IMG/VR virus record: IMGVR_UViG_2582581022_000006
DNA length: 35,543 bases
Strand: one strand, 5' to 3'
Source: a virus
Lineage: Duplodnaviria > Heunggongvirae > Uroviricota > Caudoviricetes
Numbering within the stretch: the stretch's first letter is position 1; every line of letters starts with the position of its first letter. Position numbers and translations under genes: made by a program. The notes beneath the pieces are model-generated. The model worked only from the letters and a program-made list of their open reading frames with translations. It ran no database searches and had not been told where the DNA came from. Shown here piece after piece: positions 8,202-13,442 of this stretch.

Positions 8202-9113
8202 TTATGCCTCCAGCCCGTTAATCTGTGGCGTCGGCTCAGTCAGCCATGAAGGCGCGGCATTGCCTGTTGGCTCATCCGGCAGGTCAAATGTGGAGCGCAG
8301 GCTACGCGCTGTGCTTTCCAGTTGACAGACCAGGCCTGCCATGAAGTCTCTGGGGGTATCAATCATGTTTTCAGCACAATATGCGCACAGCGTCTCAAAA
8401 GCGCTGGACAGTCGAACGGCGATAGCAGATTCCGCCTCAACCGCTAATGCTGTCACTTCCGCCCGCAGCTTCTTAACCTCTTCATCAGGCTCAGGCGGCT
8501 GAATACGGGATTTCTTCTCCAGTCTGGTGGAGAGTGAGTCTATTTTTTCATTTTTGTCAGCGAGTACGCGCTGTTGTGCTGCGTTGGTTTCGCGCGCTTC
8601 GCGCAGGGCCTGACGCAATTCACGTACTGACATGCGATCAACGTCGTCAAGCGTCAGGCCGGCAACTGTGCCGCCGTCGGCCAGTTCGGCAAGCTCTTCG
8701 TCGTCTTCTGTCATTAATTCGAAAAGTTTGGCTTTTCCCAAATGTGCCAACGTTGGCACATTTGGTTTCAGCGCCGGGGATAAGTATTTTGTCGATGCTT
8801 GCATCATTCTCACAGATGTCCGGTATGCCAGCCCCAACTCACTTTCAAGAATCTTTATAAACTCCCCGTGTGGTTCATTTTCCTTAAGGATTATCAGCCG
8901 CTTACCTGCCTCCAGCATGGCCTCAGCGCTCTGTGCCATATAAAAGCGTGCCTCATGGACAACACGATCGCGCTCATAGGGCAGACCATCGCCGAACTGT
9001 TGCATGATTTCCATGCGATGCTGTGTCATGGCGTTTAGACTGACATTGAGATCATCCGACAGCGGTACCTCGACGTTCAGTTCAGTGCTAACCGGTGATT
9101 TGGTGCGTCCCAT
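8202..9113 (-). CDS. Conserved early protein of unknown function (303 aa)
   Basis: Long ORF immediately upstream of the transposase; central coiled-coil-like region. Confidence 0.5.
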   Translation of the reverse strand: MGRTKSPVSTELNVEVPLSDDLNVSLNAMTQHRMEIMQQFGDGLPYERDRVVHEARFYMAQSAEAMLEAGKRLIILKENEPHGEFIKILESELGLAYRTSVRMMQASTKYLSPALKPNVPTLAHLGKAKLFELMTEDDEELAELADGGTVAGLTLDDVDRMSVRELRQALREARETNAAQQRVLADKNEKIDSLSTRLEKKSRIQPPEPDEEVKKLRAEVTALAVEAESAIAVRLSSAFETLCAYCAENMIDTPRDFMAGLVCQLESTARSLRSTFDLPDEPTGNAAPSWLTEPTPQINGLEA

Positions 9114-9123
9114 TGATTACTCC

Positions 9124-9432
9124 TTACAAACGACTACCTGAAATAACACGTTGGTTGATTTCGTTAATGCGATCCTGTGCACGTGCCATCTCGTTACTGT
9201 GGGCCATGGCGATCTGCAGCAACTGGATGCCTGGTGCGAAACGCCCGTTTTCTAGTTTCAGAGCCAACCCTTCTTCAATGAGCGTGTTAAGTGCCCGGTT
9301 GATGTTTGCCGGTGATTCGTGCAGTGCAACCGCTAGTTCCCCGTTAGAAACACCGTTCAAAGCGTGGCCACGTAAGGCCTTAAGAACGCGCAAAATACGG
9401 GTACCTGAGCTTGATGTATTTGGTTTATTCAT
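9124..9432 (-). CDS. Putative winged-helix DNA-binding protein (102 aa)
   Basis: HTH-like segment ILRVLKALRGHALNGVSNGELAVAL; second gene of the early operon. Confidence 0.4.
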   Translation of the reverse strand: MNKPNTSSSGTRILRVLKALRGHALNGVSNGELAVALHESPANINRALNTLIEEGLALKLENGRFAPGIQLLQIAMAHSNEMARAQDRINEINQRVISGSRL

Positions 9433-9653
9433 GACGCCTCCTTAAGGATACCGGGGGTAACTTCTTTACCTATTGCAACCGATAGATCTCGCAAAATCCG
9501 ATAAGTCAAACGACCGCGAGGTAGTTCACTTTTACCAGCCCAGCGACTGACTGCCTGGGTGACTGTTCGTGGTTCATAGCCCGCGTTAAGCGCGAACTGG
9601 CGCAAGCTACTGCCTCGTTCAACCAGCCGTGCCCGAACTTGTTGTTTGTTCAT
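9429..9653 (-). CDS. Ner/Cro-like early regulator
   Basis: ~75 aa HTH protein (SLRQFALNAGYEPRTVTQAV); first gene of the leftward early operon, divergent from the repressor. ATG at 9653; the track's 9659 start is an in-frame GTG. Confidence 0.55.
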   Translation of the reverse strand: MNKQQVRARLVERGSSLRQFALNAGYEPRTVTQAVSRWAGKSELPRGRLTYRILRDLSVAIGKEVTPGILKEAS

Positions 9654-9741
9654 ATGCACCGTGTTCCTGTTAGGTTATGATGTACTCTATTGGGTCTATT
9701 GTACACACCCAAATGAGTGTGTCAAATTGAGATATGTTCAA
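9654..9741. promoter_or_regulatory. Divergent immunity control region (operators and promoters)
   Basis: 88-bp AT-rich gap between divergent regulator genes, containing nested inverted repeats (TGTACTC...GAGTACA; ACACAC...GTGTGT). Confidence 0.55.
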
Positions 9742-10149
9742 ATGAGTACAAAAGAGAGATTGCGTGAAGTGATGGATGCTAATGGCATGACAATAAAGGC
9801 ATTATCTAACTTATCAAAAATTCCATATCGCTCACTTCAAAACTATTTGCGTGGAGAGAGAGAACCAAACGCAGAGGCTCTTGTTGCGCTAAGCACCCAT
9901 TTGGGTGTATCGATCGATTGGCTACTTACCGGTAAAGAACATATTCCATCTAAAGAAATTGTTGCTGTACCAACACAACATCAATTCAGCCCGTCAGACC
10001 TTAAAATGCTTGAACTTCTAAACCAGTTAGATCCTGAGGTTCGGCGAGATCTCATGCGAGGCGCTGAAGAAAAACAGCGTGTGATTGAGATGGAAAAACA
10101 ACTGAAGGAATTATCCGCAACGATTGAGCGGTTAAAAAATGTGGGTTAA
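9742..10149 (+). CDS. Prophage repressor, HTH XRE family, no peptidase domain
   Basis: 136 aa from the ATG at 9742. N-terminal HTH (MTIKALSNLSKIPYRSLQNYLRGEREPNAEALVALSTHLGVSIDWLL). The track's 9646 start is a TTG extension overlapping the Ner-like gene. Confidence 0.7.
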   Translation: MSTKERLREVMDANGMTIKALSNLSKIPYRSLQNYLRGEREPNAEALVALSTHLGVSIDWLLTGKEHIPSKEIVAVPTQHQFSPSDLKMLELLNQLDPEVRRDLMRGAEEKQRVIEMEKQLKELSATIERLKNVG

Positions 10150-10219
10150 TGTGTTCCTAACGAGAACATATAGCAGAAATTATTTGCCATTAAGCAATAA
10201 AAAATAAGGTGGATAGCTA

Positions 10220-11227
10220 ATGTCTGAGCAGACCATTGAAGTTAAACACGTTGTAGTTCACATTTTAGACAAACAACAAAATGGAGACGCTTCTGAGAGA
10301 TTGAGTCCTGAAGAAGGTCTAGTTACTGAAGCCTCCCAGCGCCTTATAAACGATATTTGTGCAAAATATGCAGGACGCACAGGTAAAGGTTATGGCTATT
10401 TTGAAGGCGATACGGATAACTATCCTATGGAACGAATGGCTGGGGACTTTCTCGAAGGTGTTGATGATTTCTACCAAAGTTCCTGCCGAATGATGCATCA
10501 CCTGACGGAACGTTCTCAGCGAGAAAACATGGCTACTGGTGGTTATGTTCTTTTTGCAAATATCGTGATAGGACACAATGAACACCTGTTGATAGCTATT
10601 GTAAGCGCTACCATTGGATCCACTGTCACAGATGATTTTAACATCCAAGATAGTACCTATCTTGATATTGCTAAGCTGCGTATGGCTGGGCGCATTGACT
10701 TAACCGCGTGGGAAAGTGGCGCAGAGCGCTATATCAGTTTTCTTAAGGGGCAAGGTAATGTTTCAAACTATTTTAAACAGTTCCTCGGCTGTAATGATGT
10801 CTTAATCGCCAAACGAGAGTCTGAAAAGTTACGTGACGTTTTAAAAGCATTTGCGGCAGAGAAAGGACTTGACGGCGCTGAAAAAGATGCATTTCTTAAG
10901 AGTGCGTTTGAACACTTACATGCACTAAGTAAGGCTGGTGAACCACTTAGTCTTGAAACCCTTGTTAATGCCATTTGGCCCCAGGCTCCCGAGGAGTTAT
11001 CTGGTAAACTTGCTGCTGAAGAGTTGGAGTTATCGGATGGCTTCGTTCCTGATGGTCGAGTCATTCGGGCTCTGGTATCTTTTAAAGGCAAGTCTAAATA
11101 TTGGGAACTTAAGTTTGACCGGGAAGGGAAAACTGAAGGCTATATTGATTATGATCCGGAAACAAATATTATCACCCTACGTAATGTACCTGAAGAATTT
11201 AGGGAAATGTGGATGACTGAGGTTTAA
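10220..11227 (+). CDS. YejK/NdpA-like nucleoid-associated-domain protein (NA37 family)
   Basis: 335 aa, same length as E. coli YejK. Central block TYLDIAKLRMAGRIDLTAWESGAERYISFLKGQ...FKQFLGCND aligns with the YejK core [20 protein letters not shown]...YLTFLKGR...FMDFLG. RBS AAGGTGG 7 nt upstream; AT-rich. Confidence 0.65.
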   Translation: MSEQTIEVKHVVVHILDKQQNGDASERLSPEEGLVTEASQRLINDICAKYAGRTGKGYGYFEGDTDNYPMERMAGDFLEGVDDFYQSSCRMMHHLTERSQRENMATGGYVLFANIVIGHNEHLLIAIVSATIGSTVTDDFNIQDSTYLDIAKLRMAGRIDLTAWESGAERYISFLKGQGNVSNYFKQFLGCNDVLIAKRESEKLRDVLKAFAAEKGLDGAEKDAFLKSAFEHLHALSKAGEPLSLETLVNAIWPQAPEELSGKLAAEELELSDGFVPDGRVIRALVSFKGKSKYWELKFDREGKTEGYIDYDPETNIITLRNVPEEFREMWMTEV

Positions 11228-11229
11228 TC

Positions 11230-12435
11230 GTGGCGATTTCATTTGAGATGCTGACAGATCTGTATCGTCGTATGGAATTCCAAGAGGGGTTTCGTGTCGG
11301 TTCGCTGTTGCTCTTAGATCAGTCCGATTGTGATCTGGTTGATACTTTGCTTGATGATCCTCGTGAATATGGTCTTTCTATTGATACAGGCACTATCGCT
11401 CCAGGTAACACGATCATCCTACGTGTGACGTCACCACGGAGTGGACTGGGACTTGTGTTTTCCACCCATGAAAAATTGCTAAATGCTCCAAAGCATCAGT
11501 GCCTTGAGCCAGCTAATTACTTCATCCTAGAAACAAAGTTTCGTAATGATGATGAAGATATCCCCGTTTTCATCAGCAACTACCGGAAGATTCTCGAGTT
11601 CGTTAACCTGCTAAAAGAGGCCGCGGCCTACTTTGATAACTCAACTTGTCAGTTAGTTTTTCTGAAAAAAGAAGTTATCAAGCTATTACCGCACTTCGCT
11701 GCAGAAAATGTACAAAATTTGCAAAGAGAGTATCTTGATAACCTTATAGCTTGTTTCAATGATGATACCCATAAGGATCAGAAGCTAGATATTCTGATTG
11801 AAAGTATCCAAGCAGTTAGTGATGGAATTGATTCACCTCTAGTATTCGCTTATTTACTGGACAATATTCAGCGTCTGCATGAAAAGTTTCTGAAAGGGTA
11901 TCGTATCTACTCTTCTGGATTCTCTTATGACAAAGTAATGGATCAACTGCGTGCTGCAAAAGTCGAAGAAATGGGTAAAATCCACAAAGCGTTTTCAGAT
12001 ATCCAGAACCATATACTTGGCATTCCTGTTGCCTCTGTTATCGTAGCTACCCAATTCAAAGTGGCTACGAAATGGTCAGGCCAAGGGATAACAAACACAA
12101 TAATTCTTCTGGGATGCATTTTTGCTGCAACGTTAATCTGGCTGGCACTTTCGAACCAGATGCAATCTATAAAGGCCTTAGGCGAAGAAATTGAATACAA
12201 AGAAAAACAGATTAATAAGGAATATTCCTTCATTAAAGATGACGTGGCTGGTGTATTTAGCAGTATTTCTGCGCGACTAGACACGCAGAAACGTACGTTC
12301 TGGATTATACGTGGTGTTCTAGTTATGGGAATTATTACCGCTATCACTGTTTATTTTTGGTACACAAAACCAGCCCTTGACTTCATGCAGTACTTGATTC
12401 ACTGCATGAAGTCTTACTATTCGGTCAAAAGTTGA
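11230..12435 (+). CDS. Hypothetical protein with two C-terminal transmembrane helices (candidate membrane effector)
   Basis: 401 aa; GTG start 2 nt after the upstream stop. Hydrophobic helices ITNTIILLGCIFAATLIWLAL and FWIIRGVLVMGIITAITVYFWY; soluble N-terminal ~280 aa with no recognised motif; AT-rich. Confidence 0.6.
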   Translation: MAISFEMLTDLYRRMEFQEGFRVGSLLLLDQSDCDLVDTLLDDPREYGLSIDTGTIAPGNTIILRVTSPRSGLGLVFSTHEKLLNAPKHQCLEPANYFILETKFRNDDEDIPVFISNYRKILEFVNLLKEAAAYFDNSTCQLVFLKKEVIKLLPHFAAENVQNLQREYLDNLIACFNDDTHKDQKLDILIESIQAVSDGIDSPLVFAYLLDNIQRLHEKFLKGYRIYSSGFSYDKVMDQLRAAKVEEMGKIHKAFSDIQNHILGIPVASVIVATQFKVATKWSGQGITNTIILLGCIFAATLIWLALSNQMQSIKALGEEIEYKEKQINKEYSFIKDDVAGVFSSISARLDTQKRTFWIIRGVLVMGIITAITVYFWYTKPALDFMQYLIHCMKSYYSVKS

Positions 12436-13195
12436 GGATAATGAGTTCCTTCTTGCGACTGGATTTGCCAGTGATCTTGAGGTTGTAGCTGATATCAACC
12501 GACTGAATATTTAGACCGTTGAATGCCTGCCGCATTTCCGGGATATCGTTCACCGATATAATCATCTTCCCTTTGATCCTGCGTGCTAAATCTGCCATAT
12601 GATCATAATTTTCTAGTCCGAACTCCACACCATAACCTTCCGTTCCCCAGTATGGAGGGTCACAGTAGAACAACGTATGCGGGCGATCATATCGTTCTAT
12701 GCACTGTTGCCAGTCCATGTGTTCTATGACCGTTCTGGAAAGCCGCAGGTGTGCCGCTGACAGTTCTTCTTCAATACGCAGCAGGTTGAAGCGTGGCGGG
12801 GATATGGTGGAGGTACCAAAGCTGTGCTCCGCCACCTTGCCTCCAAACGCCTGCTTCTGAAGGTAGTAGAACCGTGCTGCACGCTGGATATCCGTCAGTG
12901 TTTCTTCCGGGGTGATCTGCAGCCATTTGTAGATCTGCCGGCTGACCAGCGCCCATTTGAACTGGCGTACAAATTCTTCCAGATGATGTTTTACCACCCG
13001 ATACAGGTTCACCAGTTCACCGTTGATATCATTAATGACTTCGATCTTGCCGGGTACCTTAAGAAAATAGAGCGCTGCTGCCCCACAAAACGGCTCCACA
13101 TAACATTCATGCGCCGGAAACAGCGGCAGGATGTGTTTTGCAAGGCGGCGTTTGCCACCAATCCATGGAACGATGGGTAATGTCTGCATTTTCAT
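12425..13195 (-). CDS. DNA adenine methyltransferase, Dam family
   Basis: 256 aa; motif I FCGAAA and catalytic DPPY present. Convergent with the preceding gene, 11-bp 3' overlap. Confidence 0.85.
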   Translation of the reverse strand: MKMQTLPIVPWIGGKRRLAKHILPLFPAHECYVEPFCGAAALYFLKVPGKIEVINDINGELVNLYRVVKHHLEEFVRQFKWALVSRQIYKWLQITPEETLTDIQRAARFYYLQKQAFGGKVAEHSFGTSTISPPRFNLLRIEEELSAAHLRLSRTVIEHMDWQQCIERYDRPHTLFYCDPPYWGTEGYGVEFGLENYDHMADLARRIKGKMIISVNDIPEMRQAFNGLNIQSVDISYNLKITGKSSRKKELIILNF

Positions 13196-13442
13196 AATCT
13201 GTAAGCCTTTTACAATTATAAAAAATATGGCAGGCTAGTCTGGTCTCGCGAGACTGACTGAACCTCGGTCGGCTCACAGCGCATTCCTGTGGGGCGATGG
13301 CCAGCCCGGTGTTCGGGTACCGGGCTGGTCGTTCTTTCAAAGTCATCATGCAGTGCACGTTTACATCTTCACTATTAACGCTGTTTAAAATCCGTATCCC
13401 GCCACATTTGTGATGCTGTCTCCACCAAACGAGGAGACACAC
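13196..13442. promoter_or_regulatory. Intergenic control region between the methylase gene and the lysis operon
   Basis: Perfect 12-bp palindrome GTCTCGCGAGAC (13243-13254) and a 9-bp inverted repeat with 8-nt loop (13302-13327). RBS GAGGAG precedes the holin start. Confidence 0.4.

What the first reader, a model, noticed from the sequence alone, without database searches (positions are those of the whole stretch)
9742..12435. Repressor and cargo genes form one AT-rich, co-directional block, suggesting expression in the lysogen
The repressor gene and the two downstream cargo genes share strand and low GC and have only a 70-bp gap (10150-10219) with no obvious terminator hairpin. This suggests read-through from the repressor promoter, so the cargo would be expressed in the prophage state, as expected for superinfection exclusion.
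Basis: inference. Interest (0 to 1): 0.55.

Follow-up and report, generated by a model that had tools for sequence, protein, structure and literature searches.

The report
Prophage repressor followed by PANGU defence genes
In this Mu-like E. coli prophage, the lysogeny repressor gene runs without a terminator into a two-gene anti-phage system of the recently described PANGU type, so the sleeping virus probably protects its host much as phage lambda does with rexAB; the arrangement is well-formed but of a known kind.

Summary
The HTH repressor (9742-10149), an NA37/YejK-like gene (10220-11227) and a 401-aa membrane protein gene (11230-12435) lie on the + strand. At 41.2% GC they form the most AT-rich stretch of that length in the window. 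The 70-nt gap has only a weak AU-rich hairpin (-6.9 kcal/mol) with no U tract.

The window is a BcepMu-like transposable prophage of E. coli. The cargo fits Type II PANGU, an abortive-infection system described in an April 2026 preprint: a nucleoid-associated sensor plus a membrane effector.

Related prophages support one repressor-cargo transcription unit. The slot after the repressor holds at least five alternative contents, all co-directional with it. The empty-slot variant has a canonical terminator directly after the repressor. Two cargo variants have strong hairpins only after their last cargo gene. In one variant the repressor stop overlaps the cargo start.

No transcript data exist, and weak promoter-like sites in the repressor's 3' end cannot be excluded. 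In other prophages the same pair must use its own promoter.

Verdict: interpretation partly supported. This is a new member of a known kind (lambda cI-rexAB logic, PANGU content), of modest interest.

The parts
9429..9659 (-). ner-like small DNA-binding gene, the first gene of the leftward early (lytic) operon. That operon continues through an IclR-type HTH gene (9124-9432), DUF3102 (8202-9113), the DDE transposase (6429-8198), a MuB-like ATPase, Gam and Mor.
   Evidence: ORFs; weak Pfam HTH_35 match; RefSeq annotation of an identical prophage.
9660..9741 (.). 82-bp divergent control region. It holds a strong early promoter on the - strand (TTGACA-16-TACAAT, 9725..9698). Repressor promoter candidates on the + strand are all weak. 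The inverted repeat ACACAC-N8-GTGTGT (about 9703-9722) overlaps the -35 of the early promoter and is a candidate operator.
   Evidence: Promoter scan, 11 of 12 matches. Position-weight scan: 15 bits for the - strand promoter against 4-7 bits for + strand candidates. Repeats I2/D2.
9742..10149 (+). Putative lysogeny repressor, 135 aa: an N-terminal HTH_3/CI-type domain and a C-terminal coiled-coil.
   Evidence: Pfam HTH_3 2e-11 and Phage_CI_repr 3e-6. Divergent position. The C-terminal half is shared with repressors that carry a different N-terminal HTH (alignment A3).
10085..10152 (+). Two overlapping promoter-like sites inside the 3' end of the repressor gene (TTGAGA-18-AATTAT at 10085-10114; TTGAGC-17-TAATGT at 10124-10152). 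They are a possible internal promoter for the cargo and are unproven.
   Evidence: Consensus scan, 9 of 12 matches. Position-weight scores 8.7 and 8.9 bits, top ~0.01% of scored site configurations (355,080 = position x spacer combinations on both strands) in the window, i.e. roughly one such site per 2 kb.
10150..10219 (+). 70-nt gap between repressor and cargo. It contains a weak AU-rich hairpin at 10150-10170 (-6.9 kcal/mol, no U tract) and the ribosome-binding site AAGGTGG at 10206-10212. Homology to prophages with other cargo ends at 10169.
   Evidence: Sequence; folds; no terminator found; homology breakpoints. The gap is 29 A, 19 T, 13 G and 9 C, so it is not C-rich or rut-like.
10220..11227 (+). 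Pag2A-like sensor: a YejK-like NA37 nucleoid-associated protein, 335 aa.
   Evidence: Pfam PF04245 NA37, E 1e-80, full length. PDB 9be2 YejK, E 7e-30. Annotated 'nucleoid-associated protein' in RefSeq.
11230..12435 (+). Pag2B-like effector, 401 aa. It has an acidic N-terminal alpha/beta domain (1 to about 212) followed by long helices with hydrophobic segments at about 262-280, 285-311 and 356-378. Its GTG start lies 2 nt after the NA37 stop, with GAGG 8 nt upstream, which suggests translational coupling.
   Evidence: Sequence. Hydropathy and pI 4.96 for residues 1-260. AlphaFold model, pLDDT 81.8. No Pfam family. An NA37 gene lies directly upstream in 77 of 80 species loci.
10170..12443 (+). 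The exchangeable cargo module, as defined by the homology breakpoints with Klebsiella phage KP12, which carries a different 177-aa gene in the same slot.
   Evidence: blastn breakpoints 9001-10169 and 12444-13345; KP12 annotation.
12425..13195 (-). Phage Dam (D12-class N6-adenine) methyltransferase. It is convergent with the cargo and overlaps it by 11 bp at the 3' ends. No terminator lies between them, so cargo transcripts should run antisense into dam.
   Evidence: Pfam MethyltransfD12 7e-28; coordinates; no terminator found at the 3' end of the 401-aa gene or in the adjacent part of dam, 12436-12530.

Best explanation
The window is a BcepMu-like transposable prophage of E. coli. Its lysogeny repressor gene heads a three-gene unit: repressor, a YejK-like nucleoid-associated protein, and a membrane protein with an acidic N-terminal domain.

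The last two genes are a Type II PANGU-like abortive-infection system. According to the 2026 preprint, the nucleoid-associated protein sits on the host chromosome. When an incoming phage such as T4 degrades that chromosome, the protein is released and engages its partner effector. The infected cell then stops growing and phage spread is halted.

In this prophage the pair has been captured in a cargo slot immediately downstream of the repressor, with only about 50 nt of its own upstream sequence and no terminator in between. It is therefore most likely transcribed, at least in part, by read-through from the weak repressor maintenance promoter, which would make it constitutively present in lysogens. 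This is the same logic as lambda cI-rexA-rexB.

Shown here: the gene identities, the architecture, the absence of a terminator, the modular slot, and the placement of terminators in relatives. Inferred: the transcript itself, the promoter used, and the defence activity of this particular allele.
For: Prophage identity.
- 100% identity to E. coli chromosomal prophages, and relatives classified as Bcepmuvirus.
- Mu-type genes are present: transposase, MuB-like ATPase, Gam, Mor, Mu portal and gp27.

Cargo identity.
- NA37 match at E 1e-80; YejK structure match at E 7e-30.
- The partner has an acidic N-terminal domain and C-terminal hydrophobic helices.
- The two genes are 2 nt apart, and the pairing is kept in 77 of 80 species.
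- The preprint 10.64898/2026.04.06.716658 defines Type II PANGU as exactly this pair. It shows 3-4 log protection against T4 for an E. coli example, and that both genes are needed.

One transcription unit.
- No terminator lies in the gap, and the only hairpin is -6.9 kcal/mol with no U tract.
- The gap is not C-rich.
- The empty-slot variant (about 72% of a spread sample of related E. coli prophages) has a canonical terminator right after the repressor: an 11-bp stem followed by TTTTGTTT.
- Variants B and C have no hairpin between repressor and cargo, but hairpins of -17.5 and -17.6 kcal/mol right after the last cargo stop.
- In variant E the repressor stop overlaps the first cargo start in ATGA.
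- Betaproteobacterial relatives have HTH gene, unknown genes, NA37 and Pag2B tightly packed on one strand.
- No good promoter lies in the module-specific 10170-10212.

Precedents.
- Lambda rexAB is transcribed from PRM together with cI (PMC11077077).
- In a lysogen of the transposable phage Fc02, an exclusion gene is on the repressor transcript (PMC9936078).
Against: - There are no transcript, transcription-start or phenotype data for this locus.
- Two promoter-like sites (8.7 and 8.9 bits) sit in the repressor's 3' end and could drive the cargo independently.
- The repressor promoter candidates are weak (4-7 bits), so read-through expression could be very low.
- In Salmonella and Citrobacter lambdoid prophages the pair is antiparallel to its neighbours. 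In a Klebsiella relative it lies in a second slot with a 296-nt upstream region. The module can therefore carry its own promoter.
- In Pectobacterium a GC-rich hairpin (-16.3 kcal/mol) followed by UUU precedes the pair inside the repressor-side array.
- DNA of 41% GC in E. coli is a typical H-NS target and might be silenced. This point rests on established knowledge and was not tested.
- Co-directionality with the repressor is also co-directionality with the late genes, so orientation alone does not discriminate.
- The sequence of the experimentally tested PANGU(Ecu) is not available to me, so identity to it is unknown.
Confidence: 0.6

Rival explanations
1. The cargo is a self-contained moron with its own promoter, either in the repressor's 3' end (10085-10152) or in the gap. 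It is expressed in lysogens independently of the repressor promoter, and the adjacency to the repressor is only a convenient insertion site.
For: - Promoter-like sites TTGAGA-18-AATTAT and TTGAGC-17-TAATGT score 8.7-8.9 bits.
- The same pair is an independent unit in lambdoid prophages, where it is antiparallel to Q and the holin.
- It is also an independent unit in a second slot of a Klebsiella BcepMu-like prophage.
- A Morganella copy has TGTATAAT about 60 nt upstream of its start.
- In Pectobacterium a terminator-like hairpin precedes the pair.
Against: - The candidate sites lie in coding sequence shared with prophages that carry other cargo, and they are weaker in the KP12 type.
- Sites of this score occur roughly once per 2 kb in the window.
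- No acceptable -10/-35 pair lies in the module-specific 50 nt.
- This model does not explain why terminators sit after the cargo rather than after the repressor in variants B and C, yet directly after the repressor in the empty-slot variant.
Confidence: 0.25
2. The cargo is not appreciably expressed in the lysogen. Either it is silenced as AT-rich foreign DNA, or transcripts stop at the hairpin after the repressor, and it is expressed only in particular conditions or not at all.
For: - GC is 0.41, the lowest in the window.
- The candidate repressor promoters are weak.
- A hairpin lies directly after the stop codon.
- Convergent transcription with dam could interfere.
Against: - The hairpin is only -6.9 kcal/mol with no U tract. 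Its 5' arm varies among relatives without compensatory changes, down to 0 kcal/mol in two of them.
- Both ORFs are intact and conserved at 87-95% protein identity across genera in the same context, which argues for selection on function.
- The start sites look functional: a good Shine-Dalgarno sequence and coupled start codons.
Confidence: 0.1
3. The NA37 protein and its partner serve the prophage itself rather than defence. They might, for example, organise the nucleoid or transpososome, or tune the lysis-lysogeny switch, as has been proposed for lambda RexA.
For: - NA37 proteins bind DNA, and a transposable phage depends on nucleoid proteins (established knowledge of Mu and HU/IHF).
- Lambda RexA biases the switch towards lytic growth (PMC11077077).
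- The pair sits next to the immunity region in relatives from Gamma- and Betaproteobacteria.
Against: - Only 19 of 634 related E. coli prophages carry the pair, and about 72% have an empty slot, so it is dispensable for the phage life cycle.
- The same pair occurs in unrelated lambdoid prophages and in non-phage islands.
- Anti-T4 defence has been demonstrated experimentally for a Type II pair from E. coli.
Confidence: 0.05

Closest known systems
Type II PANGU (Pag2A/Pag2B), Li et al., bioRxiv 10.64898/2026.04.06.716658
   Same: - A YejK-like NA37 protein gene is followed immediately by a gene for a protein with a soluble, acidic N-terminal domain and a C-terminal transmembrane region.
- The pair is strictly conserved as a two-gene unit.
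- An E. coli example has been tested and works against T4 by abortive infection.
   Different: - The preprint finds these operons by their linkage to defence islands and never mentions prophages (0 occurrences).
- Here, and in every Enterobacterales context I sampled, the pair is prophage cargo. In this window it is wired behind the repressor.
- Whether this allele is the tested PANGU(Ecu) cannot be established, because the sequence is not held.
- How Pag2A activates Pag2B is unknown even in the preprint.
Phage lambda cI-rexA-rexB immunity operon
   Same: - Defence genes lie directly downstream of the lysogeny repressor and are co-directional with it; in lambda they are transcribed from the maintenance promoter (PMC11077077).
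- The pair is a soluble non-specific DNA-binding protein plus an inner-membrane protein.
- It gives abortive-infection-type exclusion of T4-like phages.
   Different: - There is no sequence relationship. No Pfam Rex family is hit, and the soluble partner is NA37.
- The membrane partner is 401 aa with a large cytoplasmic domain, against 144 aa with four transmembrane helices for RexB.
- The host phage is a transposable BcepMu-like phage, not a lambdoid one.
- Co-transcription is inferred here, not measured.
Moron/defence hotspots of temperate phages (P2 old/tin/fun slots; BstA next to the repressor in BTP1-like phages; repressor-adjacent exclusion genes of Pseudomonas transposable phages such as Fc02).
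   Same: - A fixed slot in a conserved prophage backbone holds alternative, unrelated, AT-rich cargo.
- The cargo lies next to the immunity region and is expressed in lysogens. In Fc02 this was shown by RNA-seq (PMC9936078).
   Different: - This particular slot, between the repressor and dam in E. coli BcepMu-like prophages, has not to my knowledge been described.
- Its contents are a PANGU pair plus at least four sets of genes with no Pfam or PADLOC match.
Kiwa (KwaA/KwaB)
   Same: A two-gene system with a membrane protein and a DNA-binding partner. The C-terminal region (262-394) gives a weak PADLOC KwaA match (E 8e-5).
   Different: - Only 3-4 of 48 family members hit KwaA.
- There is no KwaB/DUF4868 protein.
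- The gene order is reversed.
- The match is probably a compositional similarity between transmembrane helices.

Membership tests
Type II PANGU (Pag2A/Pag2B) | The sensor is a YejK-like NA37 nucleoid-associated protein. | tested here: met
   PF04245 at E 1e-80 over 12-327 of 335 aa; PDB 9be2 YejK at E 7e-30.
Type II PANGU (Pag2A/Pag2B) | A bicistronic operon: the partner gene is adjacent, co-directional and less than 40 bp away. | tested here: met
   2-nt spacing, with the Shine-Dalgarno sequence inside the NA37 3' end. An NA37 gene lies directly upstream of the partner in 77 of 80 species loci and in all contexts examined.
Type II PANGU (Pag2A/Pag2B) | The effector has a C-terminal transmembrane domain. 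| tested here: met
   Hydrophobic 19-residue windows at about 262-280, 285-311 and 356-378; long C-terminal helices in the model. No dedicated transmembrane predictor was available.
Type II PANGU (Pag2A/Pag2B) | The effector has an N-terminal acidic DNA-mimic (DMK) domain that binds the sensor. | tested here: inconclusive
Type II PANGU (Pag2A/Pag2B) | Both genes are required for abortive-infection defence against T4, and escape occurs through denA (EndoII) mutations. | not testable with these tools
   Experimental property reported for PANGU(Ecu) in the preprint. The sequence of that construct is not held.
Lambda-type repressor-linked exclusion operon (cI-rexAB logic) | Defence genes lie immediately downstream of the lysogeny repressor, are co-directional with it, and have no intervening terminator. 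| tested here: met
   Comparative terminator placement. Stop/start overlap in variant E.
Lambda-type repressor-linked exclusion operon (cI-rexAB logic) | The defence genes are on the same mRNA as the repressor, from the maintenance promoter, in lysogens. | not testable with these tools
   This needs RNA-seq, RT-PCR or transcription-start mapping. Only weak + strand promoter candidates lie upstream of the repressor, and there are two candidates in its 3' end.
Lambda-type repressor-linked exclusion operon (cI-rexAB logic) | Homology to RexA/RexB. | tested here: not met
   The Pfam scan at E<=0.01 returns only NA37 for the first protein and nothing for the second. The resemblance is functional and architectural only.
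Kiwa | A KwaA membrane protein together with a KwaB (DUF4868) partner. | tested here: not met
   Weak KwaA hit (E 8e-5) reproduced in only 3-4 of 48 homologues. No PADLOC hit for the NA37 protein.
Intrinsic (Rho-independent) terminator in the 70-nt gap | A GC-rich stem-loop followed by a U tract. | tested here: not met
   The scan finds none. The hairpin at 10150-10170 is AU-rich at -6.9 kcal/mol and is followed by AGCAGAAA. For comparison, the real terminator of the empty-slot variant is -17.1 kcal/mol and is followed by TTTTGTTT.

The most novel reading that the evidence does not exclude
The slot between the repressor and dam in BcepMu-like prophages may be a dedicated, repressor-driven defence-cassette site. 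On this reading any gene dropped there is automatically switched on in lysogens, and transcription from the repressor promoter falls when the ner-like early operon takes over at induction.

This would imply that the other occupants are new anti-phage systems. They are the 175-aa gene, the 297+114-aa pair, the 328+203-aa pair, the 194+314-aa pair in Pectobacterium and the 233-aa gene in Klebsiella. None has a Pfam or PADLOC match.

It would also imply that cassettes and immunity types reassort by recombination in the conserved coiled-coil 3' half of the repressor gene, and that read-through from the PANGU pair antisense into dam keeps the phage methylase low in lysogens.
Probability: 0.25. Interest if true: 0.55.

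Novelty: new member of a known kind. Interest (0 to 1): 0.35.

Why it matters
If the read-through model is right, about 0.35% of complete E. coli genomes (19 of 5426), and relatives in Yersinia, Mixta, Pectobacterium and others, carry a PANGU-type abortive-infection system as prophage cargo wired to the repressor promoter. That gives PANGU a natural expression context and a vehicle for horizontal spread that the founding preprint does not discuss.

Practically, it defines a small, well-bounded hotspot in a common E. coli prophage family (634 of 5426 genomes). At least four further gene sets there have no known function and are good candidates for new defence genes.

It also matters for phage therapy: lysogens of this prophage would be predicted to resist T4-like phages that degrade host DNA.

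Tried and rejected
1. Kiwa relationship. The weak PADLOC KwaA hit of the 401-aa protein was reproduced in only 3-4 of 48 homologues. Rejected as a transmembrane-composition match.
3. Sequence search of the 401-aa family profile against PDB sequences found no hit.
4. Repeated GTGTTCCT at 9661 and 10151 as an operator pair flanking the repressor gene. The pattern count in the window equals the chance expectation (7 found against 7.8 expected), and the region has many repeats of similar quality. Not pursued as an operator.
5. The post-stop hairpin as a conserved RNA element. The 5' arm varies among relatives without compensation, and stability drops to 0 kcal/mol in two of them. Rejected as a terminator or structured RNA.
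6. Rfam scan of the whole window found only tRNAs in the left flank.
7. Literature search for the RefSeq protein accessions found no paper. A search for BcepMu-like E. coli prophage transcription found nothing usable.
8. Low GC as evidence that repressor and cargo arrived together. Rejected, because all repressor alleles, including those with empty slots, and all cargoes are low GC, and immunity type and cargo reassort.
9. PADLOC and Pfam scans of the alternative cargo genes gave no hits.
Full report
**What is there**

The finding covers 9742-12435. ORF listing and the raw sequence show three + strand genes:
- a 135-aa HTH protein (9742-10149);
- after a 70-nt gap, a 335-aa protein (10220-11227);
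- 2 nt later, a 401-aa protein (11230-12435) with a GTG start and a GAGG ribosome-binding site inside the end of the previous gene.

The 3' end of the last gene overlaps by 11 bp the 3' end of a convergent Dam methylase gene (12425-13195, - strand).

To the left, on the - strand, lies an early operon: a ner-like gene, an IclR-type HTH gene, DUF3102, a DDE transposase, a MuB-like ATPase, Gam and Mor. To the right, on the + strand, lie holin, transglycosylase and Mu-type head genes.

The locus is 100% identical to prophages in several complete E. coli genomes. It is related to Klebsiella phage KP12 and to Escherichia phage PhiKM, which is classified as Bcepmuvirus. The window is therefore a BcepMu-like transposable prophage. 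The HTH gene, divergent from the early operon, is its putative lysogeny repressor. This is an inference from Pfam HTH_3 / Phage_CI_repr and from position.

**Checking the observation**

Every element is confirmed.
- The block has 41.2% GC against 55.3% for the rest of the window. It is the lowest of all windows of the same length (mean 54.3%, sd 4.2%).
- The gap is exactly 70 nt.
- The consensus terminator scan finds nothing in it, and its fold is no better than shuffled sequence (z = -0.41).
- The only structure is an AU-rich hairpin at 10150-10170 (-6.9 kcal/mol), followed by AGCAGAAA rather than a U tract.
- The gap has 9 C against 13 G, so it does not look like a Rho loading site.

One caveat concerns meaning. 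Low GC is a general property of this region in the whole prophage family. All repressor alleles, including those followed by no cargo, and all alternative cargo genes are 38-45% GC. Shared AT-richness therefore does not show that repressor and cargo arrived together.

**What the cargo is**

The first cargo protein is a full-length member of Pfam NA37, the YejK/NdpA nucleoid-associated protein family (E 1e-80). It matches the solved YejK structure 9be2 at E 7e-30, so it is a diverged paralogue, not the housekeeping gene.

The second protein has no Pfam family and no PDB relative by sequence. Its first 260 residues are acidic (pI 4.96). Its C-terminal third has three hydrophobic segments. An AlphaFold model built on 48 homologues (pLDDT 81.8) shows a confident alpha/beta domain up to about residue 212, followed by four long helices.

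A full-text search for NdpA/NA37 together with phage defence found one paper, bioRxiv 10.64898/2026.04.06.716658. It defines PANGU systems, in which a YejK-like protein acts as sensor next to an effector. Type II is exactly a nucleoid-associated protein (Pag2A) plus a protein with an N-terminal acidic 'DMK' domain and a C-terminal transmembrane domain (Pag2B).

The preprint reports the following for one Type II operon from an E. coli strain:
- it reduces T4 plating by 3-4 logs;
- both genes are needed;
- it behaves as abortive infection;
- T4 escapes it through mutations in denA (endonuclease II);
- Pag2A leaves the nucleoid on infection.

The window's pair meets the testable defining features: an NA37 protein, a tight bicistron, and a transmembrane C-terminus. 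The acidic DNA-mimic feature is only suggested. I could not compare sequences with the tested construct, because the supplement is not held.

**The pair as a unit, and where it lives**

The 401-aa family has 166 detectable relatives of about 400 aa. In a one-genome-per-species scan, 77 of 80 loci have an NA37 gene directly upstream. The three exceptions are partial matches.

Every Enterobacterales context I examined is a prophage:
- the same BcepMu-like backbone in Yersinia, Mixta, Brenneria, Pectobacterium and Klebsiella;
- lambdoid prophages of Morganella, Salmonella and Citrobacter, where the pair sits between antiterminator Q and the holin.

BcepMu-like contexts recur in Betaproteobacteria at 37-39% identity: Chitinimonas, Jeongeupia (two copies), Rhodoferax and Azoarcus. 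The preprint does not mention prophages at all.

**The slot**

Homology between the window and KP12 runs to 10169, 20 nt past the repressor stop, and resumes at 12444. KP12 has a different 177-aa gene in between.

Of 5426 complete E. coli genomes, 634 carry a related prophage, but only 19 have this cargo. An even sample of 60 of those records, with representatives fetched, shows these contents for the slot after the repressor:

| Variant | Content after the repressor | Rows in the 60-record sample |
|---|---|---|
| A | NA37 + 401 aa | 2 |
| B | one 175-aa gene | 2 |
| C | 297 aa + 114 aa | 2 |
| D | empty | 43 (about 72%) |
| E | 328 aa + 203 aa | 2 |

The remaining 9 rows matched only dam or only the left flank.

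Pectobacterium has 194 aa + 314 aa ahead of the PANGU pair. Klebsiella has 233 aa after the repressor and the PANGU pair in a second slot beyond dam. None of the other cargo proteins matches Pfam or PADLOC.

The repressors are mosaic. Two different N-terminal HTH domains share one C-terminal coiled-coil, and each type is found with PANGU or with another cargo. Immunity type and cargo therefore reassort.

**Does the repressor transcript run into the cargo?**

Direct evidence is not obtainable with these tools. The comparative pattern is informative.
- In the empty-slot variant the repressor is followed by a canonical intrinsic terminator: an 11-bp stem with 6 GC pairs, -17.1 kcal/mol, then TTTTGTTT.
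- In variants B and C there is no hairpin between repressor and cargo. Strong hairpins (-17.5 and -17.6 kcal/mol) lie immediately after the last cargo stop.
- In variant E the repressor stop and the first cargo start overlap in ATGA (RefSeq coordinates).
- In Jeongeupia and Chitinimonas an HTH gene, one or two unknown genes, NA37 and the Pag2B-like gene are packed on one strand with tiny spacers.
- In the window the post-stop hairpin is weak. Across relatives its 5' arm varies without compensation, down to no predicted structure. It is not a conserved terminator.

A position-weight scan finds a strong early promoter on the - strand (15 bits). Repressor promoter candidates on the + strand score only 4-7 bits, as expected for a maintenance promoter. 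Nothing acceptable lies in the 50 nt that came with the cargo.

All this favours a repressor-cargo operon. The logic is that of lambda cI-rexA-rexB, where the rex genes are transcribed from PRM (PMC11077077). It also matches the transposable Pseudomonas phage Fc02, where lysogen RNA-seq shows an exclusion gene on the repressor transcript (PMC9936078).

**What speaks against, or limits, this reading**

- Two promoter-like sites (8.7 and 8.9 bits) lie within the last 65 nt of the repressor gene (10085-10114 and 10124-10152). Such scores occur about once per 2 kb here, and the sites are in coding sequence, but an internal promoter like lambda's P_LIT cannot be excluded.
- The pair can plainly function as an independent unit. 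It is antiparallel to its neighbours in Salmonella and Citrobacter lambdoid prophages. It has a 296-nt upstream region in the Klebsiella second slot. It has a TGTATAAT element upstream in Morganella.
- In Pectobacterium a GC-rich hairpin followed by UUU precedes it.
- AT-rich DNA in E. coli is prone to H-NS silencing (established knowledge, untested here).
- Co-directionality with the repressor is also co-directionality with the late genes, so orientation alone is weak evidence.

Under either promoter model the cargo would be expressed in lysogens.

**Comparison with known systems, and novelty**

By content the pair is a Type II PANGU-like system: three defining features met, one inconclusive, the functional ones untestable. 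By wiring it is an analogue of lambda cI-rexAB, with no homology to RexA or RexB. A weak KwaA (Kiwa) match was not robust.

The new elements are modest. PANGU Type II is recurrent prophage cargo. There is a defined, repressor-adjacent exchange slot in a common E. coli prophage family. At least four uncharacterised gene sets share that slot.

I rate this a new member of a known kind, with interest 0.35. The most novel reading still open is that the slot is a repressor-driven defence-cassette site whose other occupants are new defence systems. I give that a probability of about 0.25.

**Confidence**

| Claim | Confidence |
|---|---|
| The cargo is a PANGU-type defence pair | about 0.85 |
| It is expressed in lysogens | about 0.75 |
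| Read-through from the repressor promoter is the main route | about 0.55 |
| The combined statement | 0.6 |

Noticed in passing
window 192-432 and about 1400-1800: Three tRNA genes (Arg-tct, Lys-ttt, Met-cat) lie on the - strand in the left flank. The prophage's Mor gene is at 1410-1799, so the prophage end lies near 1400. In strain RIVM_C036569 the identical prophage interrupts hyfR/hycH instead. The window's copy therefore sits at a different insertion site, as expected for a transposable phage.
   Followed up: partly
window 10154-10168; L001 about 3549-3566; L005 about 1362-1378; L020 about 3927-3942: A sequence motif TTCC-N-A-NNN-AGAACA follows the repressor stop codon in cargo variants A, B and C. 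It also appears about 65 nt upstream of the NA37 gene in the Klebsiella prophage, where the pair lies in a different slot, not after the repressor. The 3' half is invariant while the 5' arm varies, so it behaves as a sequence motif or recombination scar rather than an RNA hairpin.
   Followed up: partly
L008 1391-1918; L005 1482-2375 and 2428-2772; L007 2583-3569 and 3590-4201; L010 3331-3915 and 3927-4871; L020 2125-2826: Alternative occupants of the repressor-adjacent slot in related prophages (175 aa; 297+114 aa; 328+203 aa; 194+314 aa; 233 aa). All are co-directional with the repressor and AT-rich, and none has a Pfam or PADLOC hit in my scans. The precomputed annotation returned with L010 does list PF27202 Flk_N for the 194-aa protein; my own Pfam scan at E<=0.01 did not reproduce it. 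They are candidate new defence or lysogenic-conversion genes.
   Followed up: partly
window 9742-10149 versus L005 943-1359 and L009 4502-4918: The repressors are mosaic. Two unrelated N-terminal HTH domains (HTH_3 type and Phage_CI_repr type) are joined to the same C-terminal coiled-coil half (about 55% overall identity). Each immunity type occurs with PANGU or with another cargo, which suggests recombination within the conserved 3' half of the gene.
   Followed up: partly
window 12425-12435: The 401-aa gene and dam converge and overlap by 11 bp with no terminator between them. Variants B and C have a strong hairpin at this position. Cargo transcription should therefore run antisense through dam in this variant.
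   Followed up: no
window 9703-9722 and 9894-9908: An inverted repeat ACACAC-N8-GTGTGT overlaps the -35 of the strong early promoter. A near-perfect palindrome CACCCATTTGGGTG lies inside the repressor gene and resembles CACCCAAATGAGTG in the control region (11 of 14 positions). These are possible operator sites, one of them intragenic.
   Followed up: no
L014 3980-6182; L016 3950-6155; L011 4982-7215; L098 about 6776-8945: The same NA37/Pag2B-like pair occupies the Q-holin moron site of lambdoid prophages. It is antiparallel to the late genes in Salmonella and Citrobacter and parallel in Morganella. In an Acinetobacter Mu-like prophage it lies between the large terminase and the portal gene.
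   Followed up: partly
L007 4611-5186; L008 2980 onward; L001 5177-5743: A second variable slot lies between dam and the holin. It holds a DUF2441 gene in several relatives, the PANGU pair in Klebsiella (L020), and nothing in the window.
   Followed up: no
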